Notes: generated by a model not told the origin, from the sequence alone. Shown: positions 26,452 through 54,314, counted from the stretch's first letter. The stretch is 55,193 nucleotides of DNA from a virus (IMGVR_UViG_3300001338_000004:1-55193), one strand, 5' to 3'. Made by a program: numbers and translations.

Positions 26452-27195
26452 ATGCGAGAACGACGCGTGCTATTCGGGTGGATGCTGGGGATGCTCTTGA
26501 CAGCATCACTGGCCTCGGCCCAGACCACCATTTACCCGGCGGGCAGCATTGGCGGCCTACCGGATCCCTTGCCGGCGGTGAGCGGACAGAACCTGACGAA
26601 TCTGCCGGTCGCCAACTTGCTCGTCGCCTCCCAGGCGCAGGGCGACGTCCTGTGTGCCTCCAGCGCAACCGTGTGGGGACGATTGGCCGGGGCCGCGACG
26701 GGCAATGCGCTGATCAGTGGCGGCGCGACGACGTGTCCCTCCTGGGGCAAGGTCACGCTGACCGGCCATGTCTCCGGTATCTTGCCGGTGGCCAATGGCG
26801 GTACCAACAACGCCTTCTTCACTATCGCCGGTCCTGCCAGCACGGCCAAGACCTACACATTCCCGAACGCGGACAGTACGGTACTGACGACGAATGCGTT
26901 GGTGACATCGGCCCAGATTGCGGGCGGCACGACCGTGACCGGGACATCGGGATTCGGGGTCACTCCGGGAACGATTGAAGCCGGGTCGGTGGACTTCGCC
27001 GGTCGGGTGACCACGGGTGCGGGCGGCGATACGGGTGGGGTGATCACGTTCGCCGGCACCTACTCGGTTGCGCCGCATTGTGTGGCCAACAACGAATCTA
27101 GTGTGGCGGCCGTGAATGTGATCGCGACCACCACGACGCTGACCTTCACCGGCGTCTTCACCGCGGCGGACAAGATTACGTGGGTGTGCCGATGA
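26452..27195 (+). CDS. Fibre-like virion protein with Sec signal peptide
   Basis: MRERRVLFGWMLGMLLTASLASA|Q; fibre motifs QGDVL...WGRLAG...GNALISGG and VSGILPVANGGT; C-terminal beta domain. Confidence 0.7.
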   Translation: MRERRVLFGWMLGMLLTASLASAQTTIYPAGSIGGLPDPLPAVSGQNLTNLPVANLLVASQAQGDVLCASSATVWGRLAGAATGNALISGGATTCPSWGKVTLTGHVSGILPVANGGTNNAFFTIAGPASTAKTYTFPNADSTVLTTNALVTSAQIAGGTTVTGTSGFGVTPGTIEAGSVDFAGRVTTGAGGDTGGVITFAGTYSVAPHCVANNESSVAAVNVIATTTTLTFTGVFTAADKITWVCR

Positions 27196-27539
27196 CCCGA
27201 ATTCTTTCATGCGTGCTCGTGCTCTGCCTCGGGGTGAGTGGACTCCTATGCGCGCAAGTAGCGGCGCTCACCAAGGAGACGATGACGATTACCGCCAGTG
27301 TGACCATGTTCGACAGTGCCACATTGGACAAGCAAGTTGGGCGCTGTACCGGCGTGACCGAGACCGCATCGTTTCGGTTCTGGACAACCGGTGACGCGCC
27401 GACGTCGTCGGTTGGCAAGTTGGTGAATGCCGGCAGTGTGATCGAGATTGTCGGCGCGGCCAGCTTGCGGAACTTCAAAGCGATCCGCACCGGCGGGACG
27501 TCGGCTACGGTGTCGTGGGAGTGTTACGGCGTTCGCTAA
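27192..27539 (+). CDS. Small beta-sandwich protein with Sec signal peptide
   Basis: MTRILSCVLVLCLGVSGLLCA|Q; ATGA overlap; two Cys in the mature part. Confidence 0.65.
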   Translation: MTRILSCVLVLCLGVSGLLCAQVAALTKETMTITASVTMFDSATLDKQVGRCTGVTETASFRFWTTGDAPTSSVGKLVNAGSVIEIVGAASLRNFKAIRTGGTSATVSWECYGVR

Positions 27540-38458: not shown

Positions 38459-38878
38459 GTGGCGAAATACGGAAGCAATTCACTGGTCATCAACTTCGAC
38501 AACGTCGGCGGCACTCCGACCGACATGTCGAACTACGTCCAGACCATCAACTCGGTTGAGGTCGAGGCCATCATTGAAGAGTCGACTTCGTTCGGCGACT
38601 CGTGGATGGAGTCGCTCGCAACCGGGATTCGGAAGATGAGCGATGTCGTGCTCGGCGGCATGTTCGACGATACGGCAACGTCCGGGCCGGACGTGGTCTT
38701 CAATGCGGTGGCTAGTGGGCCGTCTGCATCCACCAGAACGCTGGCAATCACGTGGGGTGGAAGCAAGATCACCTCCGTTGAGACCCTCATCGCGAAGTAC
38801 GCGCGCACGTCGGCACGGAACACCATCACCAAGTACGCGGTCACGCTCAAGCCGACCGGTACCGTGACCGAGGCGTAG
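38459..38878 (+). CDS. Major tail tube protein (paralogue 2)
   Basis: GTG with AAGGAG; DMSNYV...EESTSFGDSW...G...FDD...PTGTVT; precedes the chaperones and tape measure. Confidence 0.75.
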   Translation: MAKYGSNSLVINFDNVGGTPTDMSNYVQTINSVEVEAIIEESTSFGDSWMESLATGIRKMSDVVLGGMFDDTATSGPDVVFNAVASGPSASTRTLAITWGGSKITSVETLIAKYARTSARNTITKYAVTLKPTGTVTEA

Positions 38879-39698: not shown

Positions 39699-42494
39699 AT
39701 GGCATCCACCGTCACCATCGGCGACATCCTCGCGGTTCTCCGGCTCAAGGACGAGATGTCTGGAGCAGTGCGTGGGATTGTGGCGGAGTCATCCTCTCAG
39801 CTGCGTCAGCTCGGCAACGATATGTCGGCGCTGGGCACGAAGATGACGATTGGATTGACCGCGCCGTTGGTGGGTGCGGCCGGGGCCGGACTGAAGTTTG
39901 GGTCCGACTTCGAAACGGCAATGACGAAGGTTTCCACCATTGCCGGTGCGACCGTCGAACAGGCCAAAGCCATTCGTGCGTCCATTATGGCCCTTGCTCC
40001 GGAGACCGGGCAGGGGCCGCTGGCCTTGGCGGAAGCTATGGTCAAGATTCCACTGGCCGCATTGAGTGCGAAGGACGCGCAAGATGTCCTGACGGCGTCG
40101 GCTCGCGCGGCTGCGATTGGCCTCGGCGAAGCCAAGGAAGTCGCGCTGCTGTTGACCGGTGTCATGAAAGCGTATGGGTCCGAGAACATCACGGCCACCC
40201 GGGCAACGGAAATCATGTTGTCCACGGTTCAGGAAGGCAACGTTGAGGTCGGCGAGTTGGCCGGGGTCCTCGGTCGGGTTGTCGGTATCGCCGCTACGGT
40301 GGGCATCTCATTCGAAGAGCTGGGCGGCTTTATCGCCACGTTCTCTCGCTTGGGTGTGGACGCGGGCGAGTCGGTCACGGCGCTGCGTGGCATTATCACG
40401 ACACTCCTCGGTCCCAGCAAGCAAGCCAAGGATACACTGAAAGAGTTCGGCACGAGCATCGACGACGTCAAATCGGCGGTGAAAGAAAAGGGTCTCACCG
40501 CGGCGATGATGGACTTGATGGGGCTGTTCAAAGGCAACGAGGATGCCTTGGACGGTGTGTTCGGCAACGTCCGGGCGTTGGCCGGCGTCATGGGTGTCTT
40601 CACAGCCCAGGGCAAGGACGTCAGTGGCGTCCTGGAGAATATCAAAGAGCGGACTGGCAACGTCGACGCCGCGTTCAAGCAGTTCAAAGAAACCACGAAC
40701 TTCAAGTGGTCGCAGTTCACGGCGGAAATGCAGACAATGGCAATTGCGCTCGGCGATAGTCTGGCTCCCAGTTTCAAAGCGTTGCTGGAAGCGAGCAAGC
40801 CGATCATTGACGTTGTGGTGTCTCTCATCAAGGGCTTTAGTGAACTTCCCGGCCCGGTGCAGACCGGCGTTATTGCATTCTTGTCACTCGTTGCCGTCGC
40901 CGGGCCCACGCTTGTGGTCCTAGGTCAACTGCTCTCGCTCTTCGGCGCGCTTGGCGGCGCGGTTGCGTGGATCATGGAGTTCGCTTCTGCCGTTGGTGCG
41001 TTTGGATTGGCTGAAGCCGCGATGGCGTGGATTCCCGGAGCCACACTGGCGGTTGAAGCATTCGGTGGGGTCCTCGCGGTGATGACCGGTCCGATCGGTT
41101 TGGTGGTTGCGGCGGTCGTTGGTTTGGGCTTGGTCTGGATGACGTGGGGTGACGATATCAAACGCGTCGTCGGCGAGGCCTATGCCGCGGTGAAAGAATG
41201 GCTCTGGGATAAATTCGAGCCAGTGTTGACCCCGATCATCGGATTGCTTCAGTCGATCGGGGAAATGTTCGAAGCGTTCGGCCGTCTCGTTGGTGCCGTG
41301 GTCGAACGCGTGTACACCGTGGCACGGGACTGGATCTACGACAAGCTGGTCGGCGTATTTAATTTCCTACACGACGGGGTGATCAAAGTACGCGACCTTG
41401 TCTTGAAGATGCCGGATTGGATGCTTGCGTTGACTGGCCCGGTGGGTCTGGTGGTCATCGCGTTCAAACACTGGGACCAGATTACGACGGTTGTGACGAA
41501 CGTATACAACGCCGTGAAACATTGGCTCATCGACAAGTTTACCGATATCGTAGACGGCATCAAGGGCAAGATCGATTCGGTGACCGGGTTCTTCAACAAC
41601 ATGTACGAGAAGGTGGTCGGCCACTCGATCGTGCCGGACATGGTGCGGGAGATCGGACTGACGATCGACAAGCTGGACGACAACTTCGTGGACCGGGTTC
41701 ACGGACAGACGACGAAAGCCACGGGTCACTTCGCGTTCATGCAGACGGCGATCATGGACGTCGTCCACGGATGGGTCACCGAACTTGAAGGGGTGATCGA
41801 CCGCGGCATGCAGAAGATCTTCGGTAAGGACGGCCCGATGGGCAAAGTTGGTGAGCTGGCTGCGGCGGTACTGTCGGCCGCGTTGAATTACGCGATCAGC
41901 CGAGCGATGTCGTCGATCATGGGCGCGATCTTCGGTACCGCAGCTGGAGGAGCCGGAGGAGCCGGAGCCGCTGGCGCGGCCGGTGGCGGTATCTCTGCCG
42001 GAGCGATCGGTGCTGCTGCTGGCTACGCGGTAATCCCGGCGCTCCTTGCGGCTCTTATTTGGAATCCGGGTCCGACTGATCCGGGCCAGAATCAGGTTCA
42101 GGATTTGGCGGCGGCGCAGTCGGCGTTCGACAATCTGATCATGCAGGGGCAGGATCCCCTCGAGGGCGGCAACAACTTTACGCAGTTCATGGCGCAGCAT
42201 CCGTGGCTGTGGGGAATGGGTCAGGGCTTTAAGGACGGCGGCATCGTACGTCCGACGGGACTTGATCCGGCAGACACCGTACCGATCTGGGCGCAGCCGG
42301 GTGAGCGGGTTCTTTCGGTACCGGAGACCCAGGCATACGACCGGATGGCCGCGTTCGGAAGTGCGGCCGGCACCACGGTTCATATTCACGTGAACGTGGA
42401 TCGTCCGGTCATGATGGACAAGCGCATGGTGGGTGAGCTGTCGGATCGCTTGGTCCGACGGATTCCGGGCGACCTTCGGAAACGGGGTCTCTAA
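39699..42494 (+). CDS. Tape measure protein (TP901-like)
   Basis: GLTAPL...DFETAM core, periodic W/F repeats and C-terminal FKDGG...DTVP...PGERV. Confidence 0.93.
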   Translation: MASTVTIGDILAVLRLKDEMSGAVRGIVAESSSQLRQLGNDMSALGTKMTIGLTAPLVGAAGAGLKFGSDFETAMTKVSTIAGATVEQAKAIRASIMALAPETGQGPLALAEAMVKIPLAALSAKDAQDVLTASARAAAIGLGEAKEVALLLTGVMKAYGSENITATRATEIMLSTVQEGNVEVGELAGVLGRVVGIAATVGISFEELGGFIATFSRLGVDAGESVTALRGIITTLLGPSKQAKDTLKEFGTSIDDVKSAVKEKGLTAAMMDLMGLFKGNEDALDGVFGNVRALAGVMGVFTAQGKDVSGVLENIKERTGNVDAAFKQFKETTNFKWSQFTAEMQTMAIALGDSLAPSFKALLEASKPIIDVVVSLIKGFSELPGPVQTGVIAFLSLVAVAGPTLVVLGQLLSLFGALGGAVAWIMEFASAVGAFGLAEAAMAWIPGATLAVEAFGGVLAVMTGPIGLVVAAVVGLGLVWMTWGDDIKRVVGEAYAAVKEWLWDKFEPVLTPIIGLLQSIGEMFEAFGRLVGAVVERVYTVARDWIYDKLVGVFNFLHDGVIKVRDLVLKMPDWMLALTGPVGLVVIAFKHWDQITTVVTNVYNAVKHWLIDKFTDIVDGIKGKIDSVTGFFNNMYEKVVGHSIVPDMVREIGLTIDKLDDNFVDRVHGQTTKATGHFAFMQTAIMDVVHGWVTELEGVIDRGMQKIFGKDGPMGKVGELAAAVLSAALNYAISRAMSSIMGAIFGTAAGGAGGAGAAGAAGGGISAGAIGAAAGYAVIPALLAALIWNPGPTDPGQNQVQDLAAAQSAFDNLIMQGQDPLEGGNNFTQFMAQHPWLWGMGQGFKDGGIVRPTGLDPADTVPIWAQPGERVLSVPETQAYDRMAAFGSAAGTTVHIHVNVDRPVMMDKRMVGELSDRLVRRIPGDLRKRGL

Positions 42495-44164
42495 TGGCGT
42501 GGCGTCTCGAGGTCGACGGAGATGATGTCACCCAGTCGGTGGACGCGACGCATCGGGTACAGATTGAACTCGGTCCACTGAACGAACGCGACCGACTCAC
42601 CTTCACCTGCAAGCCGGGTTACCTTCCGAATCGACTCGACGAGGTCTACGCATACAAGCAGGACGGCACGACCTTGCTGTTCGGCGGTATCGTACTACAC
42701 CGGTCGTTCGACGGGATGCTGCCGAGTGCCAATCCCGGGTACTGCGAAGTCAGTTGTGTCGATTTCTTTGCGTACACCGATTGGTGCTACACTGAGTATG
42801 CGTCCGACGTCCCGGTCACTGTGAAGGAAGTCCTCGAGGCGCTGATCGCCGAAGTTTTAACCGACTACGGATTTACGCTGGATGCGGGGCAGGTGGATGG
42901 CCCGTCGGTTGATGCCGTGGATTGGTCTACCGGGATCCGTGTGTCGGATGCCCTACGTGAGATCTTTGATCGCACCGGCTACGTCGTACGGGTGTCGCCG
43001 GATAAGAAGATTCGGATGTTCCTGCCGGGATCGGAAGCGGCTCCCCACGCACTGACCGACGCGGCTCCTCACTGTCGTTCTCTTCGGTGGTCCGACCCGG
43101 ACGACATGGATTCGAATCACTATATTCTGGACATCGGTCCCACAGGAACCGCCTCCCGTGTCCAGGAGTGGACGGCGGACGGGGTCGATACTACGTGGGA
43201 GTTTGACGTCCCGATTGCCGCGTACCCGCCGTTGATTTACGTCGATGACGGCGTGTCTCCGTTTCTCGGGACGATTAGTGAACCGAGCGGCGGCGGTCAA
43301 TTCGAGATTGATCTGGCGGCTAATCGGCTGCAAGTAGGTACGTACGGTACCCCGGCCGCCGGGGTCGTACTCCGCTTCGGTCCCAGTACGGAGTTCGGCG
43401 ACGCGATTGTTGGGTACACGGCTCAGTACCCGTTTCGTATTCGTGTGGGTAGTGGATCTCCAGCGATCTACGGACGGGGCGCGCGACCGGATATTCTCGA
43501 ACCCAGTATTGGGACGTCGGTCGCCGAGGGGTTGCTGGCGCAGATCAATCAGTCGCCGTTGACCGTTGAGGTTGAGAGTCTCGACTCTGGATGGGAGCCG
43601 GGTCAGTCGCTGTCGATTGCGTTGACCGAACGCGTCACCGGGACGTATGCAATCACCACGGCGGCAATCACGTTGATCAGCGACGAGTTCTGGGTGTATA
43701 ATTTCGAGGCAACCGAGACGACCTACCAGGGATCCTACCTGACCGAATGGCGGCAGATGCTCGGAGGTAACGGTGCGAGCAGCGTCTCGGCTCCCGGCGG
43801 CTCAACGTTAACGGTGGCAGCCAATCCGTTTGGGTTGGGTGGTTCGCGTGACCGTGCGGTCACGATGGCGGCGTCGCCGGCGTGGCATGACGTCGTTGAT
43901 TTCTTGGACTACTATCCAACGGTATCGTATACCGGACGGATACGGGGTGCAATTCGTGCACGGAATACCGGAGTCGAGGTGACGCTCCGTTTGCTCAACG
44001 TGACGGACAGTACGTCGGTTGAGTCGGACCCCGTTGAAGATACGGATTTTGTGGACGTGGACTTCACGGCTACGATCACGAACGGAAAGCATTACAAACT
44101 GCAGGTCTACGGAGATGTGGGGAGTGAAGATGTCTACGGCATTGCGACACTGCAAAGTCTATAG
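42494..44164 (+). CDS. Tail tip/hub protein
   Basis: Follows tape measure; LFGGIV and VSDALREI..TGY..VSPDKKI motifs; no signal peptide. Confidence 0.7.
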   Translation: MAWRLEVDGDDVTQSVDATHRVQIELGPLNERDRLTFTCKPGYLPNRLDEVYAYKQDGTTLLFGGIVLHRSFDGMLPSANPGYCEVSCVDFFAYTDWCYTEYASDVPVTVKEVLEALIAEVLTDYGFTLDAGQVDGPSVDAVDWSTGIRVSDALREIFDRTGYVVRVSPDKKIRMFLPGSEAAPHALTDAAPHCRSLRWSDPDDMDSNHYILDIGPTGTASRVQEWTADGVDTTWEFDVPIAAYPPLIYVDDGVSPFLGTISEPSGGGQFEIDLAANRLQVGTYGTPAAGVVLRFGPSTEFGDAIVGYTAQYPFRIRVGSGSPAIYGRGARPDILEPSIGTSVAEGLLAQINQSPLTVEVESLDSGWEPGQSLSIALTERVTGTYAITTAAITLISDEFWVYNFEATETTYQGSYLTEWRQMLGGNGASSVSAPGGSTLTVAANPFGLGGSRDRAVTMAASPAWHDVVDFLDYYPTVSYTGRIRGAIRARNTGVEVTLRLLNVTDSTSVESDPVEDTDFVDVDFTATITNGKHYKLQVYGDVGSEDVYGIATLQSL

Positions 44165-47100
44165 TCTGCTCCTGGCGCTTTGGGCCGCTCCGGCCTTTGC
44201 CCAGTCGAGCTACGACGCAACGAATGTGTACTTTGGTACACTACGTATTACGGCCGGGAGCGGCTCTCCTGAAGGGGTGGTCACGGCTCCAGTCGGTAGT
44301 CAGTACTATCGAAACAACTGCTCCACAACGACACCCTGCGTCTACGTGAAAACCGCGGGGTCCGGCAACACAGGGTGGGTTGCGGTACCGGGATATGGAA
44401 CCGCGTCGGCGAATACGGTATTCGCAGGACCGACGTCCGGTGGGGTCGCGGTACCTACGTTCCGTATCCTTGTTGATGCGGATCTTCCGTTCGGTACGCC
44501 GACACAAGGCGACGTGGTGGTCGGTAATGGGACGCCCGCGTGGTCTCGCCTTGCCATTGGTGCATCGCCAGGGCAGCTGTTGCGGTCAACCGGGACGGCT
44601 CCCGCGTGGAGTACAACCATTTGGCCAAATGCGGCTACAACCGGCGACCTACTCTATGCGGCGAGCGCCAATACCTACGGTAATCTGAACGATGTGGCGA
44701 CCGGCCGTGTGCTGATTAGTGGCGGTGTCGGTACTGCACCCAGCTATAGCGCGACGCCACCGCTGACCGCGGTCTACGGTGATCCGACGAATCATCAGCT
44801 GTCTCTCGGCGGTAGCGGTGTCAGTGGGTGTCCGAATCCCCCGTCGCTCGCAACGTGTGAGGGTGCGGATGTTACGATCACATCTGCGTTCCTTGAGCAG
44901 CGTTTGAAGACGGATAGTTCGTACCGCTCGCAGTGGTTCATCGGCAGTGACGGCGGACATCTGAACGCGTACAACGCGGGCGGATGGATGGCGATGCGGA
45001 TCGACGGCGGTCCCACGCAGTTCGGCGGCGGCGGGGTGCATATCGGTACCAACAACGTTAGTGATCCCGGACTCGGGAACGCGGCCTTGGACGGGTACAT
45101 CGGTACGCCAAACTATGTCTCGAAGACAACCGGATGGCGTATGACGTATGCGGGCGAGCTGGACGCCCGCTACGGCTACCTAGACGAACTTCAGGTTAAG
45201 TTGTTCACAGCTGAACTTCAGCGTGCGTTGAGAGGGTCGGAAATCATTGCACCGTCTTACGGCGTACTGGCCTCTGATTTTACCGTGCCGGCCAAAGGCA
45301 GTATTGCGACGCTGATCTTGAAAGATGCGGAAGGCGTACCCAACGTTCAGGTCCTCACGTCTGGACACACGGTAAACGTTCGCACCATGTCTCGACCGGA
45401 CGGCGGACTTATCGTCGGCAACGCCTTCGGGACCGTCAGTGGATATACGGACAACGCAGACGGCACGCAAAGCTGGACGTTCACCAGATTCCTTGGGAAC
45501 GACGGCGGCAGTTTGCCGACCGGCACAACCGCGTCTTCGGGCGGAGTGGTGCTCGACTACGGGACGTCTGGCAGTGGTTACCTGGAGTTGACCTCGGTTG
45601 ACGGCACTGCGGTGATTACGTCGCTTACGCGGGCCAGCTCGACGGCCACGGCGACAACCACCGCGCCGCACGGTCTGAAGACGGGCGACACCGCAGTCAT
45701 CAGTGGTGCGACGGACTCGGCATACAACGGATCGTTCACGATTACGGCGACCGGATCGACAACGTTTACCTATACCGTGTCCGGCACACCGACGACGCCA
45801 GATCCGAGCACGCAGATTCTTGTGAACGGGACGAACGGTACGAACGCACCCTACTCACAAGTCGTTACGTGGTCTGGGCTGTCTCCACAAGCGGCGAATC
45901 TCACGCTTCGCCAGCGCTGTGGCAATCTGCGCGGTGTCACCGGCACGCTGGAGTATGGGTGTTTGCTCGGTACGTACACTGGATCGAACGCCGACAAGTA
46001 CATGATCTTTTCGGATCAGCAAGCGACGATCCGAAACGTCAACCTCGATATTTATAGTGGGTCGAATCGCGCCATCATCTTGGATCCGGCGACGCCGTAT
46101 CTATCGATGGGCGTGCCGGCCTCGACGGCGTACGGTAGTGGCACGGGTTTCTTCGTCGGTCTCGACGCCGGGTGCATGAAGGTGCACATCGGGGACTACA
46201 GTACGAACTACATCGACTGGAACTGCTCTCAGTTGACGGTCAGTGGAAATATTGTCATCACCGGCACGTCCATCGATGCGTCTTCAGTAAATGGCTACTC
46301 GGGTGCCTCTGTCGTCAGCGCGTCGCAGCGTGGGCTTCTCGGATTCGATAGTTTTGGGAATCCGATCTTGCCGCACGCTGCCACGCCGTCCGGGAGCGGT
46401 CTGTTCCTCGGCTCCGACTACATGGGCTACTTCGCGTCAAGTGCGTGGAAGACCTACATTAGTAGCGGAGGCGATTTCGCGTTTGGCAACTACGGCGACG
46501 GAGGCTCTGGCATCTCATGGACACAAGCCACCGGTACGCTCAGTATCCGTGGTCAGGTGACGATCACCAGCGGAAGTGTCCCGAATGCTTCGGTCACGGG
46601 GCTTGGGGCGCTCGCTACCCAGAATACGGTGGCGATGGGTTCACAGACTACCGGCAACTACGCAGGTTCCTCGTCTGCGGGCGGGAGCGCCAACGACACG
46701 GCACTGGTCAACGGTGTTTCGGCGTCAACCGTCCAAGACGGGGCCGCACGCGCTGCTTCCGGTTTGAACGCCAGCGGCTATCTAGTTACGAAAGTGATCC
46801 CAGGAACCGCCGCCGCTCCTTCGGGGGCTGGTTTGTATCTTGGGTCGGACTACCTCGGGTACTACAGCGGGTCGTCTTGGCAAACGTTCATGCAGTCGAA
46901 CGGTAACTTCTACCTCGGCGGTACGAGCGGTGCGTTGCAGTGGAATGCCTCCGGCGGTACGCTAGCCGTTGACGGGACCATCGTTGCAAGAGCGGGACAG
47001 TTCCTCGGGAGCCTCTCGGTCGGGACCGGCGGCGTACTGTATTCAGGCAAGAGCGCGTGTACGACCGGTACCGGGTTCTGGCTCGCTTATAACTCTGGGA

Positions 47101-47555
47101 CACCGCAAGCGTGCTTCGGAGATCCGAGCGGGAATTTCTTCAACTGGACCGGCGCGGTGCTCGACATTAAAGCGGGGTACAACTCCAGTCTTGGAACGTA
47201 CGCGCTCGTCGTGGACGGTTCCGGTAATAAGCATGTCGGTATGGGAGCGGGACCGATTACCGCCGCCACACTAAACGTTGCGAGCGACGACAATACGTCC
47301 GCGACCTATAGTTTCATTGCGTCGAACCACTCTGCCTCTGCAATCAATCTTGTCGGCTATGGTGATGGTTCAACGTATGTTGGAGGACCGATCTTCTTTG
47401 GTACGGGTCAGTGGGACACGACCGGGAATGGTACGAACCCACCGTCTCAGATGAACGGACCTTTCGGGAACCGACAGCTTGATGGGTGGTTCCCGATTTG
47501 GGTTTGGACCGGTGCGTCCTATCAAAAGGTGTGGCTGCCTGCGTGGTTTGACTAG
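44130..47555 (+). CDS. Large tail fibre/adhesin (1141 aa) with Sec signal peptide
   Basis: ATG 44130 with GGGGAG RBS; MSTALRHCKVYSLLLALWAAPAFA|Q; GSGSPEGVVTAPVGS.Y...YVK..G..GW fibre motif; G/S/T-rich internal repeats. Confidence 0.8.
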   Translation: MSTALRHCKVYSLLLALWAAPAFAQSSYDATNVYFGTLRITAGSGSPEGVVTAPVGSQYYRNNCSTTTPCVYVKTAGSGNTGWVAVPGYGTASANTVFAGPTSGGVAVPTFRILVDADLPFGTPTQGDVVVGNGTPAWSRLAIGASPGQLLRSTGTAPAWSTTIWPNAATTGDLLYAASANTYGNLNDVATGRVLISGGVGTAPSYSATPPLTAVYGDPTNHQLSLGGSGVSGCPNPPSLATCEGADVTITSAFLEQRLKTDSSYRSQWFIGSDGGHLNAYNAGGWMAMRIDGGPTQFGGGGVHIGTNNVSDPGLGNAALDGYIGTPNYVSKTTGWRMTYAGELDARYGYLDELQVKLFTAELQRALRGSEIIAPSYGVLASDFTVPAKGSIATLILKDAEGVPNVQVLTSGHTVNVRTMSRPDGGLIVGNAFGTVSGYTDNADGTQSWTFTRFLGNDGGSLPTGTTASSGGVVLDYGTSGSGYLELTSVDGTAVITSLTRASSTATATTTAPHGLKTGDTAVISGATDSAYNGSFTITATGSTTFTYTVSGTPTTPDPSTQILVNGTNGTNAPYSQVVTWSGLSPQAANLTLRQRCGNLRGVTGTLEYGCLLGTYTGSNADKYMIFSDQQATIRNVNLDIYSGSNRAIILDPATPYLSMGVPASTAYGSGTGFFVGLDAGCMKVHIGDYSTNYIDWNCSQLTVSGNIVITGTSIDASSVNGYSGASVVSASQRGLLGFDSFGNPILPHAATPSGSGLFLGSDYMGYFASSAWKTYISSGGDFAFGNYGDGGSGISWTQATGTLSIRGQVTITSGSVPNASVTGLGALATQNTVAMGSQTTGNYAGSSSAGGSANDTALVNGVSASTVQDGAARAASGLNASGYLVTKVIPGTAAAPSGAGLYLGSDYLGYYSGSSWQTFMQSNGNFYLGGTSGALQWNASGGTLAVDGTIVARAGQFLGSLSVGTGGVLYSGKSACTTGTGFWLAYNSGTPQACFGDPSGNFFNWTGAVLDIKAGYNSSLGTYALVVDGSGNKHVGMGAGPITAATLNVASDDNTSATYSFIASNHSASAINLVGYGDGSTYVGGPIFFGTGQWDTTGNGTNPPSQMNGPFGNRQLDGWFPIWVWTGASYQKVWLPAWFD

Positions 47556-47564
47556 GAGTGAGTA

Positions 47565-47855
47565 ATGACGAAACGTTTTTCTTTAGTCTTGATCGTTTGC
47601 GCCCTGTCGGCGGTTTCGGCTCAGGTTGGTCCTGACGACGCGGCCGCTGCGCGCGTGAAAGCCGTTGAAGCAATCACAGCGGGTATTGAGAGAGCCAAGG
47701 CTGCTGACGCGACGAAAGTGCGTCCCGCGTCTTCTGGTGCCGTTCCAGAGACGCCGTTCTCAAGGATGCAGGCGGAGATCGTGAATCTTCGCCGTGAAGT
47801 GGACGCGCTGCATGCTCGACTGGATCGAATTGATCCGGCTGGCCGCGGCCGCTAG
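47565..47855 (+). CDS. Small signal-peptide coiled-coil protein between fibre genes
   Basis: MTKRFSLVLIVCALSAVSA|Q; C-terminal heptads; AGGAG RBS. Confidence 0.65.
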   Translation: MTKRFSLVLIVCALSAVSAQVGPDDAAAARVKAVEAITAGIERAKAADATKVRPASSGAVPETPFSRMQAEIVNLRREVDALHARLDRIDPAGRGR

Positions 47856-47875
47856 TAGTAATCAAGGAGTTGCTA

Positions 47876-49756
47876 ATGATTTGGATTCGTCGCCTGTTGT
47901 TCTCTCTTGCGTTTGTGGTTGCCCCGACGGCCGGGTTCGCACAAGCGGTCATCGTCCCGTCGCCAGTGCCGTCGTTGACAGCTGGCTGCACGATCCAGCG
48001 TGACGGGACCAATAGTTCGTGGGTCTGCTCAGCGGTTGCGGCTGCAAGCCAGCCGTTGACGGATTCACTGGGCTTGATTGCGAATGCGTCTGACGCGACG
48101 AAGGTCCTGGCGTTCGACGTCTCGGCAATCGCGACCGCAACGACACGGACGGTGACGTGGCCGAACGCGAACGTCACCGTCCCGACGACCATCGCGTCGC
48201 TCGGCGCGAACACGTTCACGGCACTGCAGACCGCGAACGGCGGTATCGCGACGACAACGTTCACGCTCAGTAGTACGATGCAGAGTAATTTGACGTTCAC
48301 CGATGCGACCTACGACATTGGTGCAAGCGGTGCGACGAGACCGAGACACTACTACGGGTCCGGCAACGGCGTGTTCGGCGGAACACTCGCGGTCACGGGT
48401 GTTGCGACATTCACCGCACAGCCGATTCTCTCGTCGTTGACCGCGTCGCTGCCGGTGTTCACGGACGCGTCGAAAGGGCTGGTCAGCAACGCGATGACCG
48501 GCACCGGCAATGTCGTGATGTCGGCGTCTCCAACGTTGAGCGGCACTACGACTCTGGCGATTCTCGTCGGTACGGATACGACCGATGCGTCGTCGAGCAC
48601 TACAGGTGCGTTCAAAACGGCTGGCGGTATGGGAATTGCCAAGAAATTGTTTGTCGGTACGGCACTCGACGTCGGTGGTGCTTCGACGATCACGACCCTT
48701 GTGGGATCGGATGCTACGGATTCATCATCGAGCACGACCGGCGCGTTCAAGACCGCCGGTGGTCTGGGTGTCGCGAAGAAGTTGTTCGTTGGAACTTCGC
48801 TTACCGTTGGAACCGACCTTGCCACTACTGCCGGAACAGGTTCATTTACGAAGAGCGTGAACGACGCCGCCTTTACGTTGAAGGTCCGAAACGCGAGCGC
48901 GACGACTGCATCGGTCACATCTCTGGTGATCGATAACAGCGCGAGTAACGGATGCGGAGTTCTCAGTTCTGCTGGCGGCAGCTTCACAACGAGTGGCCGT
49001 CGAGTTGCAAACGATTTTGACATCAATCAGGCATGTAATCAGGTTCTTAATATCGCTTCGGAAGGCAGCGGCGGTATGAAGTTCTTCTCCGGCGATGCCA
49101 CTACAACTCGCATTCAGATCAACTCTAACGGTAACGTCGGAGTCGGCGCGGGTATCGCGGCAGATACAGCTATCGCTCTTGTCGTAGGCGGTATAACGAG
49201 TGATAGCAGCAAGTTCATTTTCTACGGATACAACCTTGCGACCACGACGGAGTTTTACGTTCGGAACGATGGCTATGGGTTCCTCAACGATACCGCGTGG
49301 CACTACTCCTCGGACGAACGGTTAAAGGAGAACATCGAGCCGGTCACCGACGGACTTGAACGTGTACTCGCGTTGACGCCAAACTACTTCGACCGTCGTG
49401 ACGGCCGCAAGAACCAGATCGGCTTCATCGCACAGCAAGTGTTGCCAATTATTCCCGAAGCGGTCGAAGCCGATCACAACGGCTACATGGGCGTGGCAAC
49501 GGACTTCATCACGCCGCTGTTGGTCAACGCGATCCAGCAACAAGAGGCACGGATCGTTGCACTCGAAGCGAAGGCGAACGTGAACAAACCGAACTCGCCG
49601 AACGCTTCGGCTCGAGCGACGGCCGTGAAGAAGTTGGCGACAGAAAAGAAGGTCGCGGTCGACGCGGAGCTAAAAGTACTGAAGGCCCGCGCCGACTGTA
49701 CTCGACAGAGTGCGCTGATTGTGAAACAGGGCGGCACGCCGTTGGACTGCAATTGA
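47876..49756 (+). CDS. Tail fibre with N-terminal Sec signal peptide and C-terminal intramolecular chaperone (peptidase S74)
   Basis: AAGGAG RBS; MIWIRRLLFSLAFVVAPTAGFA|Q; SSDERLKENIEP...GFIAQQV...PEAV...LLVNAIQQ. Confidence 0.85.
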   Translation: MIWIRRLLFSLAFVVAPTAGFAQAVIVPSPVPSLTAGCTIQRDGTNSSWVCSAVAAASQPLTDSLGLIANASDATKVLAFDVSAIATATTRTVTWPNANVTVPTTIASLGANTFTALQTANGGIATTTFTLSSTMQSNLTFTDATYDIGASGATRPRHYYGSGNGVFGGTLAVTGVATFTAQPILSSLTASLPVFTDASKGLVSNAMTGTGNVVMSASPTLSGTTTLAILVGTDTTDASSSTTGAFKTAGGMGIAKKLFVGTALDVGGASTITTLVGSDATDSSSSTTGAFKTAGGLGVAKKLFVGTSLTVGTDLATTAGTGSFTKSVNDAAFTLKVRNASATTASVTSLVIDNSASNGCGVLSSAGGSFTTSGRRVANDFDINQACNQVLNIASEGSGGMKFFSGDATTTRIQINSNGNVGVGAGIAADTAIALVVGGITSDSSKFIFYGYNLATTTEFYVRNDGYGFLNDTAWHYSSDERLKENIEPVTDGLERVLALTPNYFDRRDGRKNQIGFIAQQVLPIIPEAVEADHNGYMGVATDFITPLLVNAIQQQEARIVALEAKANVNKPNSPNASARATAVKKLATEKKVAVDAELKVLKARADCTRQSALIVKQGGTPLDCN

Positions 49757-50190
49757 CTGGGAGTGGATCCTTGGATAACGAACAGTTTCGCGAGCTGATG
49801 GAACGGATCGAGACTACGCTGGAGCGTCGGATCAGCGACGGACAGCAAGAGACCGGACGGCGATTCGATGAAGTGGATCGACGGCTCGACGATCTGACGA
49901 TCCAGGTACGGCTGACGAACGGTAACGTACGCAACCACGGCGAGTCGTTGGCGAACCACCAACCGCGGCTACTGGCGACTGAGCGGGATATCCGTGAAAT
50001 AAAGCGAACGTTCGCGGAAGATCATCAACTTAAACCGCCCGCCGGATCGACCGTTGTGACGCTGCCGCCGGATATGCAGCCGGTAACCAACTACACGCTA
50101 CAGCGGGTAATCGCGTTGGTCGTGGTTACCGCGACGATTACCGCGACGGTAACGATGTTCGTCTTGAAGGCAATGCAGCAGCGTCCGTAA
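49753..50190 (+). CDS. Coiled-coil protein with C-terminal TM (holin/XhlA-like)
   Basis: RFDEVDRRLD..QVRLTNGNVR, then a hydrophobic C-terminus; upstream of the putative lysin. Confidence 0.5.
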   Translation: MTGSGSLDNEQFRELMERIETTLERRISDGQQETGRRFDEVDRRLDDLTIQVRLTNGNVRNHGESLANHQPRLLATERDIREIKRTFAEDHQLKPPAGSTVVTLPPDMQPVTNYTLQRVIALVVVTATITATVTMFVLKAMQQRP

Positions 50191-50210: not shown

Positions 50211-50639
50211 ATGCCGTTGAAACTGCGATTGATCCGCGAACCGTCCCGGAACGGGTTCACCACCGGGGTCTTGTTCGCAAACGGAGTCTTCCAGAACTTC
50301 ATTGGAGAGGACCAGATACGTGAGGTCCCCGGACAGCCGGTAACGGAATGGAAAGTCAAAGGCAATACCGCGATCCCGGCCGGAACGTATCGTATCGTAC
50401 TCCAGCAATCGGCGCGGTTCGGCCGGCTCATGCCCTACTTGATACGGGTGCCGGGATTCGACGCGATCGAGATCCACTGGGGGAACAAGAAAGAAGATAC
50501 GGAAGGCTGCCTGTTGACTGGACTGATCCGTGGATATGATTCCGTGGGCGGCTCGAAACAGGCCTTCGAGGCGTTGATCAAAATCATCGAGGCGAATCAG
50601 CCGGTCACGATTACGATCGAGAATCCGGAGGTCCTGTAA
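50211..50639 (+). CDS. DUF5675-family protein, putative peptidoglycan-acting lysin
   Basis: TAIPAGTY...VPGFDAIEIHWGN...DTEGCLL.G signature with His/Cys pair. Confidence 0.8.
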   Translation: MPLKLRLIREPSRNGFTTGVLFANGVFQNFIGEDQIREVPGQPVTEWKVKGNTAIPAGTYRIVLQQSARFGRLMPYLIRVPGFDAIEIHWGNKKEDTEGCLLTGLIRGYDSVGGSKQAFEALIKIIEANQPVTITIENPEVL

Positions 50640-52470: not shown

Positions 52471-53868
52471 ATGAAGCGACTCCTACTCAGTCTGTGTGTT
52501 TTGCTCGCCGCGTGTGTGGTGCCCGGGCCACGGACGCCCACGCCTCCGGCTCCCACGACATTCACGCTGACCGTGGAAGTCGTCGATGAACGCTCGGAAC
52601 AACCGCTCGTCGGATCCCACGCCTACCGCGACAACAATATGGACGTCGCGGTCTTCGTGGGAGACGCGGGCCGAGTATCTTGGCTGCTCGACGCAGCGGG
52701 ATTCAACGTCTGTGCCCGGGCGACGGCACATCTCACGCGCTGTTTGCCGGTGTCCGAGGTACGGGACCAAACGATACGGCTCGCCCTGACCCCAGAAGCG
52801 GTGGTCGTGCCCGTACCGCCGGAACCGACGCGGCCGGTCGTTGTATGGCCACCCGCACGCCCGCGTAGTCAACTTCCGGAGTTTCCGGCGATCACCAGTA
52901 CGGGCGACGGGGTTTGGTCTAGCGGACCGTACGATCGGACGATCCCCTTCCCGGTACCCTCACGACCGGATATCGATTTCCACCGCGGTAACTTCAGCGG
53001 TATTCGCGTACCGGAGTGTCACCTCCCGCAACTTGAGGCGGGCATCGCGGGACATCCGGAACATGTGATGACCTGGGATCAGCCGCAGTATGCCCCGGCC
53101 GATCAAGCGTGCGTCCTGAACGCGTACGCCAACGTGCGCGGCTACACCCACTTCACAATGTCGATTCCGCAGGCACGGAATCACGGTGTACTGGATCAGC
53201 GGTTGCTCGACGCGGCGGTGTTGGCCAAACAATACAACCAGTTCGTCGTGATGATCGTGTACGGCGGCGACGGCGAGTCGTTTGGAGACGTCCTCCCGTG
53301 GCTCGAGAAGCTGGTTGCGCTGCATGCCGTCGATGAACTCTCGGTCTGCTGGCAGTGTGACTTTCGCTACGACCCATTCGAGCTCGTTTCTCGAACCCAG
53401 GAACTCGGCGAGTGGGCGCACGCACACGGTCTAAAGGTCTCACAGCATTGGGTCAACGAAGCGCTGGCGTGGTGGAACGCGGCTGACGAAGGCGGGACAC
53501 GGAAGAATACCTGCCTTGATTCCGCCGACCTCGGTCTGCCGCCGATCTGCAACCGGTTCGACTACCACCGCGTCATGGCGCAGTATGTCGACTACCAGTA
53601 TCACCAAGGCGACACCGGGGCAGCAATCAACGACGACCGGACCGGCGGCTACCAAGGATCTATCGGTGACGTCCTTCGGTCTCTGACGACCGAGAAGCTG
53701 GTCATCGCCGAATACGACGCACAGCGTGAGTTCGACGACCCGGATCATGCGACCGAAGATCAGGGTGATTTGAAGGGCTACCTACTGATGTGTACGCAAC
53801 GCAATGGGGCGTTCGTACTCGGCGGGTACATGAATGGGGCGCGGCTTCCCAACGGGTCCGTGTTCTAG
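52471..53868 (+). CDS. Lipoprotein with putative glycoside-hydrolase-like barrel
   Basis: Lipobox MKRLLLSLCVLLAA|C; Pro linker; carboxypeptidase-regulatory-like beta domain; W/Y/E-rich alpha/beta C-domain (RGYTHF, LVIAEY). Confidence 0.65.
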   Translation: MKRLLLSLCVLLAACVVPGPRTPTPPAPTTFTLTVEVVDERSEQPLVGSHAYRDNNMDVAVFVGDAGRVSWLLDAAGFNVCARATAHLTRCLPVSEVRDQTIRLALTPEAVVVPVPPEPTRPVVVWPPARPRSQLPEFPAITSTGDGVWSSGPYDRTIPFPVPSRPDIDFHRGNFSGIRVPECHLPQLEAGIAGHPEHVMTWDQPQYAPADQACVLNAYANVRGYTHFTMSIPQARNHGVLDQRLLDAAVLAKQYNQFVVMIVYGGDGESFGDVLPWLEKLVALHAVDELSVCWQCDFRYDPFELVSRTQELGEWAHAHGLKVSQHWVNEALAWWNAADEGGTRKNTCLDSADLGLPPICNRFDYHRVMAQYVDYQYHQGDTGAAINDDRTGGYQGSIGDVLRSLTTEKLVIAEYDAQREFDDPDHATEDQGDLKGYLLMCTQRNGAFVLGGYMNGARLPNGSVF

Positions 53869-53876
53869 GAGGGGTG

Positions 53877-54314
53877 ATGAAAGCGATTCGTATTCTCTGC
53901 GTGTTCGCGTTGTTCATGTTGGTGGCTACGGCGACGCCACCGCTGATCGCACAAGCCGTGTCTTCGGTCGCGGCCGCGAGTCCGGACGGGCCGGTGCGCG
54001 TGCCGAACGCCGCCGACGAGTGGGGTAGCGCCTTCGTGTGGTCGCTGCTGACCTCGTTCGGCCTCCAGTGGTGGCGCTCGAACGCAAAGCTCGGCGGTTT
54101 CTCCGAGAAGACGCACCTGATCGTCCAGCGCACCATCGCCGGTCTCGTCGCGTTCGGCGGGTCGATCGGGATCACCTACGCCTTCGACCCCACCACGGGG
54201 CACCTGTCAGTCGACGGACTACTCTTGCCCACGATGTGGTCGGCCGGTCTTCACTGGGTTCGTCAGTTCGCGCTGCAGGAATTCGCGTACCGTGCGGCGG
54301 TAAAGGAGCGATAG
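53877..54314 (+). CDS. Multi-pass membrane protein (holin candidate)
   Basis: AGGAGG RBS; N-terminal signal-like segment plus 2-3 hydrophobic segments. Confidence 0.55.
   Translation: MKAIRILCVFALFMLVATATPPLIAQAVSSVAAASPDGPVRVPNAADEWGSAFVWSLLTSFGLQWWRSNAKLGGFSEKTHLIVQRTIAGLVAFGGSIGITYAFDPTTGHLSVDGLLLPTMWSAGLHWVRQFALQEFAYRAAVKER

What the first reader, a model, noticed from the sequence alone, without database searches (positions are those of the whole stretch)
44130..49756. Tail fibres carrying Sec signal peptides: possible extracytoplasmic folding and assembly of the phage adsorption apparatus
Seen: all three genes after the tail hub begin with a basic n-region, hydrophobic h-region and AxA|Q cleavage site: MSTALRHCKVYSLLLALWAAPAFA|Q, MTKRFSLVLIVCALSAVSA|Q and MIWIRRLLFSLAFVVAPTAGFA|Q. 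Each start has a good RBS. The two large ones look like fibres (GSGSPEGVVTAPVGS motif, G/S/T repeats, S74 chaperone SSDERLK). Capsid, tube, tape measure and hub proteins lack such peptides. Established: tailed-phage virions normally assemble entirely in the cytoplasm, with fibres attached by their N-termini. Inference: these fibres are exported, fold in the periplasm and join tails at or after inner-membrane lysis. Alternatively they are displayed or released as receptor decoys or exclusion factors.
Basis: partly seen in the sequence, partly recalled or inferred. Interest (0 to 1): 0.92.

Follow-up and report, generated by a model that had tools for sequence, protein, structure and literature searches.

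The report
Phage tail fibres with export signals
In this uncultured tailed phage and its relatives, every tail-fibre gene starts with a classic bacterial export signal. The fibres also carry the paired-cysteine pattern of proteins that fold outside the cytoplasm, which is not how tailed phages are thought to build their host-recognition parts.

Summary
The window is a near-complete (93%) uncultured siphovirus. The three genes after the tail hub (44130, 47565, 47876) start behind good ribosome-binding sites with an n-h-c leader and Gln at +1.

The leaders are conserved. All 45 of 45 cluster representatives carrying fibre C's N-terminal domain start with a leader plus Gln. At the cut, -1 is Ala or Gly in 43 of 43 and +1 is Gln in 43 of 43. 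Ten of 10 hub-family phage loci have a leader-bearing protein directly after the hub.

New independent evidence comes from cysteines. Mature A has 5 local Cys pairs and C has 3. Among 166 fibre homologues, 48 of 50 leader-bearing ones have an even Cys count, against 25 even and 44 odd without a leader (p 3e-12). A small fibre module has a Cys pair in 12 of 13 copies behind a leader and in 2 of 87 elsewhere.

Gln at +1 fits the Bacteroidetes Q-rule. Export and oxidative folding are therefore well supported (about 0.85). Attachment to virions after the holin acts is plausible (about 0.45) but untested, and an envelope-only role remains open. I found no report of this in the literature searched.

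The parts
42494..44164 (+). Tail hub (556 aa), no leader, 5 Cys. Its C-terminal ~125 aa are a candidate docking domain.
   Evidence: It directly follows the tape measure (PHROG). Homologues sit in the same place in 9 other loci. It is homologous to the N-terminal part of the fusion protein P0010 (E 2e-16). There is no Pfam, PHROG or PDB sequence match.
44130..47555 (+). Fibre A precursor (1141 aa).
   Evidence: ORF and RBS. Eleven of 50 homologues have a leader plus Gln. The body is homologous to the MS-identified structural protein of Salinibacter phage M8CR30-2 (E 3e-21) and to P0010. The mature part has 10 Cys in 5 local pairs.
44130..44201 (+). Leader of A (24 aa). Predicted cut after Ala24, with Gln25 at +1.
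   Evidence: Gln25 is invariant in alignment A2 (7 sequences), while the leader sequences differ.
44235..44381 (+). GSPEG module (~50 aa) with the Cys64/Cys70 pair, at the mature N-terminus of A.
   Evidence: This module is C-terminal in 56 other distinct viral copies. A Cys pair is present in 12 of 13 leader-linked copies and in 2 of 87 others.
47565..47855 (+). B: small exported coiled-coil protein (96 aa; leader 19 aa, Gln20 at +1).
   Evidence: There is a weak Trimer_CC match below the cut-off. It is an orphan in 5.8 billion proteins. Unrelated small leader-bearing ORFs lie beside the fibres in L086, L005 and L089.
47876..49756 (+). Fibre C precursor (626 aa).
   Evidence: PHROG tail-fibre families. 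Profile matches to PDB tail fibres 8jov (E 1e-12) and 6f45. The mature part has 6 Cys in 3 local pairs.
47876..47941 (+). Leader of C (22 aa). Predicted cut after Ala22, with Gln23 at +1.
   Evidence: 45 of 45 representatives have a leader plus Gln.
47942..48049 (+). Two-Cys cap (starting QAVIVPSPVP, Cys38/Cys51), followed by a generic fibre repeat.
   Evidence: A24, P28, P32 and C51 are invariant in A3. The first Cys shifts position but a pair is always kept. The downstream part matches as a repeat, with up to 22 copies in other proteins.
49310..49465 (+). Peptidase_S74 intramolecular chaperone domain of C, with the S-D-x-x-x-K motif.
   Evidence: Pfam PF13884, residues 479-530. The motif definition is taken from PMC10769870.
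26452..27195 (+). Fourth leader-bearing, fibre-like protein (247 aa; Gln at +1; 4 Cys).
   Evidence: It shares a fibre motif with ORFs in L025/L026 and L040/L042.
27180..27539 (+). Small leader-bearing protein (119 aa; Gln after LLCA; 2 Cys in the mature part).
52471..53868 (+). Predicted lipoprotein (465 aa; lipobox LAAC).
   Evidence: No family match.
53859..54314 (+). Membrane protein with a leader-like N-terminus and two further hydrophobic segments. Possible holin.
   Evidence: No family match. The function is inferred from position only.

Best explanation
A, B and C are made as pre-proteins and exported unfolded by the host Sec system. Signal peptidase I cuts them after Ala24, Ala19 and Ala22. 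The new N-terminal Gln is probably cyclised, as in Q-rule (Bacteroidota-type) hosts.

The two fibres then trimerise and fold in the oxidising periplasm with local disulfides. C uses its S74 intramolecular chaperone. B may be a periplasmic helper.

The fibres are the receptor-binding fibres of this siphovirus lineage. They meet the cytoplasmically built head-tail particles only when the holin opens the inner membrane, and they dock on the hub, perhaps on its C-terminal domain.

What is shown here by sequence statistics: leader conservation, cut-site rule, Gln at +1, cysteine pairing, synteny, and fibre homology. What is inferred: actual export, pyroglutamate, disulfides, late docking, the role of B, and the host phylum.
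For: 1. Leaders with good RBSs.

2. Conservation.
- A-type: 11 of 50 homologues have a leader plus Gln, and Gln25 is invariant in A2.
- C-type: 45 of the best 150 representatives of 1.84 billion clusters carry the whole N-domain. All 45 have it at the very N-terminus behind a leader plus Gln.
- At the cut, -1 is A37/G6, -3 is A25/V9/T4/G2/L2/S1, and +1 is Q in 43 of 43.
- Leader identity is 0.25, against 0.45 for the first 12 mature residues.

3. Cysteines.
- A has pairs 64/70, 234/243, 597/611, 682/699 and 977/995. C has pairs 38/51, 360/387 and 608/625.
- Of 166 homologues, the 50 with a leader all contain Cys and 48 have an even count. Of the 116 without a leader, 47 have no Cys, 25 are even and 44 are odd. 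Fisher p is 2.8e-12. Density is 6.5 against 2.1 Cys per 1000 aa.
- Beyond the conserved cap, C-type representatives have 0 further Cys in 27, an even number in 16 and an odd number in 2.
- The GSPEG module has a Cys pair in 12 of 13 leader-linked copies against 2 of 87 others.
- The leaderless fusion P0010 has no Cys at six of A's Cys positions (597, 611, 682, 699, 977, 995).

4. Twin arginine occurs in only 9 of 45 and 3 of 11 leaders, so the route is Sec, not Tat.

5. Every SPI-type leader seen in the window (A, B, C, 26452, 27180) and the extra ones noted in relatives (L005, L086, L089, L049, L015, L100) has Gln at +1. This matches the Q-rule (PMC5837995, abstract and passages).

6. Virion role.
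- Tape measure, hub and leader-bearing protein lie in that order in 10 of 10 hub-family loci.
- Hub stop and fibre start overlap or lie within 4 nt.
- Leaderless endolysins follow the fibres (GH108, SLT, Hydrolase_2).
- P0010 fuses hub and fibre body.
- A's body matches a Salinibacter phage protein listed as structural, and that study identified structural proteins by LC-MS/MS.

7. Feasibility: Bdellovibrio MAT fibres are S74-type fibres with signal peptides that reach the cell surface (PMC10769870, passages).
Against: - No signal-peptide predictor was available. My scan is loose (9.9% of shuffles pass).
- The cysteine tests use related sequences, so the p-values overstate independence.
- Three of the 10 proteins directly after the hub have odd mature Cys counts (L098 11, L100 5, L004 3).
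- No recognisable N-terminal virion adaptor is present. A starts with a module that is a C-terminal tip elsewhere. C starts with a 35-aa cap and then a generic repeat. L098 starts a weak pectate-lyase-like part about 18 aa after its leader (below the cut-off).
- B has no relatives.
- There is no cultured relative, no prophage and no named host.
- The time between holin action and lysis is short, so late docking may be inefficient (established lysis biology, recalled).
- MAT fibres show that the same architecture can be a cell-surface organelle and not a virion part.
Confidence: 0.45

Rival explanations
1. The fibres are exported but never join virions. They act in the envelope of the infected cell. 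They could mask or bind the receptor (superinfection exclusion, or protection of progeny from adsorbing to debris), strip surface polymers, or be displayed like MAT fibres. The virion would then adsorb through the hub or an unrecognised protein.
For: - All the export evidence applies.
- No N-terminal virion adaptor is recognisable.
- In Bdellovibrio, MAT fibres with the same layout are cell-surface structures.
- P. gingivalis prophages encode Q-rule leader proteins that the authors suggest may modify the host outer membrane (PMC10367356, passages).
- Unknown large proteins lie downstream (50639-52459, 606 aa; no family match).
- Four homologues have lipobox-like leaders.
Against: - Ten of 10 hub-family loci place the leader-bearing protein directly after the hub, with coupled starts. 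No leaderless fibre candidate lies before the lysis genes.
- The conserved N-end with a variable distal end is the pattern of a docked fibre.
- The hub-fibre fusion P0010 exists.
- No integrase was found among the 20 ORFs scanned, and the phage encodes its own PolA, ThyX and ligase. Long-term display by a lysogen is therefore unlikely here.
Confidence: 0.3
2. Dual fate. Most copies are exported and act in the envelope, while a fraction that escapes export, or keeps its leader, is built into tails in the cytoplasm.
For: It would reconcile the tail-module position with the missing adaptor. Some known phages make both free and virion-bound forms of depolymerases (recalled, not checked here).
Against: No internal start is conserved after the leader: the mature N-terminus begins exactly at Gln in 43 of 43. 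The paired cysteines imply that the functional form is oxidised. No call supports this reading directly.
Confidence: 0.12
3. The hydrophobic N-termini are not export signals. They would be structural anchors buried in the hub or tail tip, or membrane-active segments used during infection, and the fibres would assemble in the cytoplasm as usual.
For: Tailed-phage virions are known to assemble in the cytoplasm (established). The Hankyphage paper treats the absence of signal peptides as a mark of phage origin (PMC6199706, passage). The tape measure also has hydrophobic stretches.
Against: - A buried anchor would be conserved in sequence. The leaders are the least conserved part, yet keep the n-h-c form, the -3/-1 rule and Gln at +1.
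- The even, paired cysteines track the leader.
- The leaders are short (mostly 17-25 aa).
Confidence: 0.08
4. Annotation artefact: the true starts lie downstream and the leader-like stretches are untranslated or arise by chance.
For: My scan passes 9.9% of shuffled N-termini. The ORF of A extends upstream to a TTG at 44019.
Against: Each ATG has a proper RBS. The same feature recurs in every relative with an unrelated leader sequence. The independently called proteins in the public collections start at the same place.
Confidence: 0.03

Closest known systems
Bdellovibrio bacteriovorus MAT (mosaic adhesive trimer) fibres (PMC10769870; passages read)
   Same: Both have a signal peptide, then a conserved N-terminal domain directly after it, then a long trimeric phage-like fibre with variable tips. 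Some have an S74 chaperone/protease with the S-D-x-x-x-K motif (13 of 21 MATs). They are exported proteins of a Gram-negative cell.
   Different: MATs are chromosomal genes of a predatory bacterium and sit on its surface. Here the genes lie in the tail module of a phage, directly after the hub. Homology of the N-terminal domains could not be tested, because no MAT N-domain sequence or structure was within reach of the tools.
S74-type phage tail fibres and spikes (T5 L-shaped fibre, K1F endosialidase; PDB 8jov and 6f45 matched)
   Same: C has the Peptidase_S74 domain and its distal part matches solved tail fibres.
   Different: As far as I recall, the known ones have no signal peptide and assemble in the cytoplasm through an N-terminal virion-binding domain. 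The phage records matched cover only the S74 end of C (19% of the query at best).
Long tail fibre of Salinibacter phages M8CR30-2 and M1EM-1, and the hub-fibre fusion P0010
   Same: Both share a homologous fibre body (E 3e-21 and 1e-42). They sit in the same place after the tape measure. The host is a Bacteroidota-type bacterium for the Salinibacter phages.
   Different: These are single giant leaderless proteins that start directly after the tape measure. P0010 carries a hub-like N-end, but the Salinibacter protein shows no significant match to the window's hub. The window splits hub and fibre and puts a leader at the split. P0010 lacks the cysteines at six of A's Cys positions.
Q-rule signal-peptide proteins of Porphyromonas gingivalis prophages (PMC10367356) and the Bacteroidetes Q-rule (PMC5837995)
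   Same: These are phage-encoded proteins with SPase I leaders exposing Gln at +1.
   Different: In the passages read, the five Q-rule proteins there are of unknown function and are discussed as modifiers of the host outer membrane. They are not described as tail fibres.
Exported phage proteins of tailed phages: signal-peptide or SAR endolysins, spanins, Lom, Cor, Llp (recalled; endolysin case read in PMC8878798)
   Same: These are phage late or moron proteins that use the host Sec machinery.
   Different: They are lysis or exclusion factors, not fibre-like proteins of the adsorption module.
Filamentous phage adsorption protein g3p (recalled)
   Same: It is an adsorption protein made with a signal peptide, disulfide-bonded in the periplasm and added to the virion at the membrane.
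   Different: It belongs to a non-tailed ssDNA phage that assembles by extrusion. No capsid or tail is built in the cytoplasm.

Membership tests
Sec / signal peptidase I signal peptide | Basic n-region, uncharged hydrophobic h-region of about 8-15 residues, total length about 15-30 aa | tested here: met
   A, B and C have leaders of 24, 19 and 22 aa. Forty-five of 45 C-type representatives have a leader. Most are 17-25 aa.
Sec / signal peptidase I signal peptide | Small neutral residues at -3 and -1 (the AxA rule) | tested here: met
   At -1: A37, G6. At -3: A25, V9, T4, G2, L2, S1. Counted over 43 placed sequences.
Sec / signal peptidase I signal peptide | Not a lipoprotein leader (no Cys at +1) and not Tat (no conserved twin arginine) | tested here: met
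   Position +1 is Gln in A, B and C. RR occurs in 9 of 45 C-type and 3 of 11 A-type leaders.
Sec / signal peptidase I signal peptide | Score from a trained predictor (SignalP, Phobius) | not testable with these tools
   No such tool was on hand. My own scan is loose.
Sec / signal peptidase I signal peptide | Export and cleavage demonstrated | not testable with these tools
   This needs PhoA or BlaM fusions, or N-terminal mass spectrometry.
Bacteroidetes Q-rule substrates | Gln directly after the SPase I cut | tested here: met
   Five of 5 SPI-type leaders in the window have it (A, B, C, 26452, 27180). So do 43 of 43 C-type sequences. Gln25 is invariant in A2.
Bacteroidetes Q-rule substrates | Host belongs to Bacteroidota (or another high-Q lineage) and has a glutaminyl cyclase | tested here: inconclusive
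   No prophage or named host was found. The only cultured relatives of any part are Salinibacter phages.
Peptidase_S74 intramolecular-chaperone fibres | Pfam PF13884 match above the gathering score | tested here: met
   C residues 479-530, 48 bits against a cut-off of 22.
Peptidase_S74 intramolecular-chaperone fibres | Catalytic S-D-x-x-x-K motif | tested here: met
   SDERLK is present in C. The motif is as given in PMC10769870.
Peptidase_S74 intramolecular-chaperone fibres | Autoproteolytic release of the C-terminal chaperone | not testable with these tools
   This needs expression and SDS-PAGE.
Virion tail fibre / receptor-binding protein of a siphovirus | Gene in the tail module downstream of the tape measure and hub | tested here: met
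   The same order holds in 10 of 10 hub-family loci.
Virion tail fibre / receptor-binding protein of a siphovirus | Homology to proteins shown to be in virions or solved as tail fibres | tested here: met
   A matches the Salinibacter phage structural protein. C matches PDB 8jov and 6f45.
Virion tail fibre / receptor-binding protein of a siphovirus | Leaderless N-terminal domain that docks on the tail in the cytoplasm | tested here: not met
   Leaders are present, and no known adaptor follows them.
Virion tail fibre / receptor-binding protein of a siphovirus | Presence in purified particles | not testable with these tools
   There is no cultured phage. Supplements of the Salinibacter paper were closed.
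Bdellovibrio MAT fibres | Signal peptide followed at once by a conserved N-terminal domain, then a trimeric fibre with or without S74 | tested here: met
   The architecture of C fits.
Bdellovibrio MAT fibres | Sequence homology of the N-terminal domain to the MAT N-domain | not tested
   No MAT N-domain sequence was reachable. PDB entries cover only the tips. Profile A3 hit no MAT entry by name.
Bdellovibrio MAT fibres | Chromosomal gene of a bacterium, displayed on its own surface | tested here: not met
   The genes lie in a 55-kb virus record with terminase, portal, capsid and tail genes.

The most novel reading that the evidence does not exclude
A whole lineage of tailed phages builds its adsorption apparatus in two compartments. 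Heads and tails assemble in the cytoplasm. Every receptor-binding fibre or spike is exported by Sec, capped with pyroglutamate and disulfide-bonded in the periplasm. The two halves are joined only when the holin breaches the inner membrane. This would be a virion assembly step outside the cytoplasm, not known for Caudoviricetes. Exported phage fibres of this kind could also be the evolutionary source of bacterial surface fibres such as the Bdellovibrio MATs.
Probability: 0.4. Interest if true: 0.93.

Novelty: new variant of a known kind. Interest (0 to 1): 0.8.

Why it matters
Textbook assembly of tailed phages is wholly cytoplasmic, and the lack of signal peptides is even used as a mark of phage origin (PMC6199706). 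This lineage breaks that rule at all of its receptor-binding genes, and an independent cysteine signature suggests the break is functional.

If the fibres do end up on virions, several things follow:
- Lysis timing, holin type and fibre attachment become mechanistically linked.
- Fibres can use disulfides and pyroglutamate for stability outside the cell.
- Host-range prediction and fibre engineering would have to take export into account.
- Signal-peptide filters used to separate phage proteins from bacterial ones would misclassify these proteins.

If the fibres do not end up on virions, this is a large, conserved, unrecognised class of phage-encoded envelope fibres. Gln at +1 also gives a simple host-lineage marker for uncultured phages.

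Tried and rejected
- **Tat export:** rejected. Twin arginine is not conserved, the leaders are short, and the cysteine pattern points to folding after export.
- **Lipoprotein leaders for A, B and C:** rejected, since +1 is Gln. Four distant homologues do have lipobox-like leaders.
- **T9SS-type C-terminal signal:** no family match on A or C beyond S74. Not pursued further.
- **Position-by-position conservation of A's cysteine pairs:** not found. Only 234/243 recurs in several relatives, and each protein has its own set. I therefore used parity and density instead.
- **Host search:** a scan of one genome per prokaryote species with the C-type profile gave one 3.3-kb contig binned as a Nanoarchaeota MAG, probably a stray viral contig. 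Cultured phages share only the S74 end of C and a 170-aa piece of A.
- **Identity of the hub and of the 606-aa protein:** no Pfam, PHROG, PDB or Atlas answer.
- **A-type profile against PDB:** nothing.
- **Lysogeny:** no integrase among 20 ORFs scanned with Pfam. The record is 93% complete, so absence is not proven.
- **Literature:** four searches for signal peptides on tail fibres, plus passages read in PMC6199706, PMC5723332 and PMC8878798, gave no report of a leader-bearing tail fibre. This covers only the held open-access library. Supplements were closed, including the Salinibacter proteomics table, which may bear on which protein was seen by mass spectrometry.
- **Complex prediction (hub C-domain with the mature N-end of A) and structure prediction:** both were switched off, so no docking test and no fold comparison were made.

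Full report
**What the window is.** It is a whole IMG/VR virus record of 55,193 bp, estimated 93% complete, with about 60% G+C and no tRNA. The right arm is a standard siphovirus late module. In order it holds the large terminase, portal, head morphogenesis protein, scaffold, major head protein, adaptors, two tube-like proteins, a chaperone region and a 931-aa tape measure. Then come a 556-aa hub (42494-44164), the three genes of the finding, and a set of unknown, lipoprotein and membrane proteins. The left arm encodes a family A DNA polymerase, ThyX, an SNF2-type helicase, a PD-(D/E)XK nuclease and an ATP-dependent ligase. No integrase was found among the 20 ORFs scanned.

**The observation.** A (44130-47555), B (47565-47855) and C (47876-49756) each start at an ATG 5-6 nt behind a purine-rich ribosome-binding site. 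Each has a leader of 24, 19 or 22 residues with basic residues, an uncharged hydrophobic core, small residues at -3 and -1, and Gln at +1. C carries a Peptidase_S74 domain above Pfam's cut-off and matches several PHROG tail-fibre families. A profile of its family matches solved tail fibres (8jov at E 1e-12, and 6f45). My crude leader scan flagged 11 of 60 ORFs, seven of them with a score of at least 2.5. These were A, B, C, two further proteins upstream of the terminase (26452 and 27180), a lipoprotein (52471) and a membrane protein (53859). None of the head, tube, tape-measure or hub proteins was flagged. The scan is loose, since 9.9% of shuffled N-termini pass, so the case rests on what follows.

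**Do relatives keep the leader?** Yes.
- *A-type.* Eleven of the 50 homologues of A (P0001-P0008, P0013, P0014, P0031) begin with a leader of unrelated sequence followed by Gln. In a 7-sequence alignment Gln25 is invariant.
- *C-type, word-index search.* A search with the first 330 residues gave 1037 hits. Of the best 120, 37 have a leader by my scan. About 27 of these share the same mature N-terminus, QAVIVPSPVP followed by two cysteines.
- *C-type, exhaustive search.* A profile search of 1.84 billion cluster representatives found 2058 hits. Of the best 150, 45 carry the whole N-domain. All 45 carry it at the very N-terminus behind a leader and Gln, with two cysteines in the next 45 residues. 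The other 105 match only a generic fibre repeat, present in up to 22 copies.
- *The cut site.* At the cut, -1 is Ala in 37 and Gly in 6. Position -3 is A25, V9, T4, G2, L2, S1. Position +1 is Gln in 43 of 43 sequences. The script could not place the other two, which by eye also read Ala then Gln. The leader is the least conserved stretch. Twin arginine is not conserved.

This is the signature of a working Sec/SPase I signal, not of a structural segment.

**An independent line: cysteines.** Mature A has ten cysteines forming five neighbour pairs, and mature C has six forming three. The hub has 5, the portal 5 and the tape measure none. Of the 170 fibre homologues collected, four that do not start with Met were dropped, leaving 166.
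- The 50 with a leader all contain cysteine, and 48 have an even number. Density is 6.5 per 1000 residues.
- Of the 116 without a leader, 47 have none, 25 are even and 44 are odd. Density is 2.1 per 1000 residues.
- Fisher p is 2.8e-12.

The sequences are related, so the p-value is generous. But among the C-type representatives, the cysteines beyond the shared cap number zero in 27, even in 16 and odd in 2.

The roughly 50-residue GSPEG module gives a cleaner test. In most viral ORFs it is the extreme C-terminal tip of a fibre (56 distinct copies), and there it has no cysteines. When it sits behind a leader it carries a cysteine pair in 12 of 13 copies, against 2 of 87 elsewhere. One of those two is in fact leader-linked but was missed by my pattern, and one leader-linked copy without Cys (L006) was binned among the others. 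The leaderless hub-fibre fusion P0010 has other residues at six of A's cysteine positions. Even, locally paired cysteines are a known mark of exported, disulfide-bonded bacterial proteins (recalled: Dutton and colleagues 2008, not read here).

*Results against this line.* Individual pairs are not conserved across A-type relatives. Three of the ten proteins directly after the hub have odd counts (L098 11, L100 5, L004 3).

**Gln at +1.** Every SPase I-type leader in the window has Gln at +1, and so do the extra ones in related loci. In Bacteroidetes most SPase I substrates expose Gln, which is cyclised to pyroglutamate. The mean Q-value is 71% there, below 9% in most Chlorobi, and 77% in Ignavibacterium (PMC5837995, abstract and passages). 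The host is therefore probably a Q-rule organism. The only cultured phages sharing any part of A infect Salinibacter. No prophage or named host was found, so this remains an inference.

**Are they the phage's fibres?** The order of tape measure, hub and leader-bearing protein is conserved. It holds in the window and in L003, L004, L005, L015, L049 (the same contig as L099), L085, L088, L098 and L100. That is 10 of 10 loci whose hub is clearly related. The hub stop and the next start overlap or lie within 4 nt. Two AT-rich loci with only distantly related hubs (23-26% identity, L102 and L103) have no leaders on the next genes.

The bodies behind the leaders differ. Some are A-type, others are unrelated, and one has a weak pectate-lyase-like start below Pfam's cut-off. 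The leader therefore goes with the position, not with one fibre family. In L085 and L088 an A-type fibre and then a C-type fibre follow the hub, as in the window. In L084, L049 and L004, leaderless endolysins (GH108, SLT, Hydrolase_2) follow the fibres. This leaves no other fibre candidate and implies canonical, large-hole holins (inference).

P0010 fuses a hub homologue (E 2e-16) to A's body (E 1e-42) in one leaderless chain. The Salinibacter phage protein matching A is a 1954-aa product directly after the tape measure and is annotated as structural, in a study that identified structural proteins by LC-MS/MS.

**What speaks against a virion role.** Nothing after the leaders looks like a tail adaptor. 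A begins with a module that is elsewhere a distal tip. C begins with a 35-residue two-cysteine cap followed by the generic repeat. L098 starts its spike-like part about 18 residues after the leader. Leaderless homologues of C instead begin with long conserved N-termini of the usual kind.

The hub residues from about 432 to 556 have no counterpart in the alignments with P0010 and are conserved among hubs. That makes them a candidate docking site. The complex prediction that would have tested this was not available, and neither was structure prediction. B is an orphan. Its role as a periplasmic helper is a guess from its position, leader and coiled-coil look (a weak Trimer_CC match below the cut-off).

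**Comparison with what is known.** The closest described thing is the MAT fibre family of Bdellovibrio. All 21 members have a signal peptide followed at once by a conserved domain of about 130 residues, then a trimeric phage-like fibre with variable tips. Thirteen have an S74 domain, and the fibres are located on the cell surface (PMC10769870, passages). C has the same layout but sits in a phage tail module. Homology of the N-domains could not be tested.

P. gingivalis prophages encode five Q-rule leader proteins of unknown function (PMC10367356, passages). Exported endolysins are well known (PMC8878798). In four searches and the passages read I found no report of a signal peptide on a tail fibre. 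One paper uses the absence of signal peptides as support for phage origin.

**Verdict.** Export by Sec, cleavage before Gln and oxidative folding outside the cytoplasm are well supported by three independent sequence signatures (about 0.85). That these exported proteins are the virion's fibres and are added after the holin acts is the most economical reading of the gene order, but it is unproven (about 0.45 for the full chain). An envelope-only role comes second (about 0.3). Either way this is a new variant of phage fibre biology that deserves bench work.

Noticed in passing
window 26452-27195 and 27180-27539: Two more leader-bearing proteins with Gln at +1 lie just upstream of the terminase genes. 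The first (247 aa, 4 Cys) is itself fibre-like and shares a motif with ORFs in L025/L026 and L040/L042.
   Followed up: partly
window 44235-44381; loci L003-L082: The ~50-aa GSPEG module (GSGSPEGVVTAP ... GNTGW) is very common in viral contigs. It usually forms the last ~45 residues of a fibre ORF. Its function is unknown. It can be tandem (P0034 has 4 copies, L067 has several).
   Followed up: partly
P0088, P0102, P0128, P0134 (homologues of C): These fibre-like proteins have leaders ending in a lipobox-like motif with Cys at +1. They may be lipid-anchored fibre-like proteins. Their genomic context was not seen.
   Followed up: no
P0010 (1202 aa, 5-kb metagenome contig): A natural fusion of a hub homologue and an A-type fibre body in one leaderless protein.
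   Followed up: yes
L083 (3.3-kb contig): The only hit for the C-type N-domain among species-representative genomes lies on a short contig binned as a Nanoarchaeota MAG. It is most likely a viral contig binned by mistake.
   Followed up: no
window 52471-53868: A 465-aa predicted lipoprotein (lipobox LAAC, 9 Cys in the mature part) with no family match, sitting between an unknown 606-aa protein and the putative holin.
   Followed up: partly
window 50211-50639: A DUF5675 protein (E 3e-23) in the place where relatives have an endolysin. No recognised endolysin was found in the window, so this may be the lysin. This is inference only.
   Followed up: no
window 37693-38430 and 38459-38878: Two adjacent tube-like proteins have similar N-termini (both start MAKYGS) and both match PHROG major tail proteins. 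L049 and L005 show the same arrangement.
   Followed up: no
window 49753-50190: A 145-aa coiled-coil protein with a C-terminal hydrophobic segment lies directly after fibre C. A protein of the same size annotated with transmembrane regions follows the fibre in Salinibacter phage M8CR30-2.
   Followed up: no
P0171-P0176 and others: The stretch of C from about residue 55 to 115 (SQPLTD ... TTRT.T.PDAN) is a repeat unit. It is found up to 22 times in giant proteins of 1600-5400 aa.
   Followed up: no
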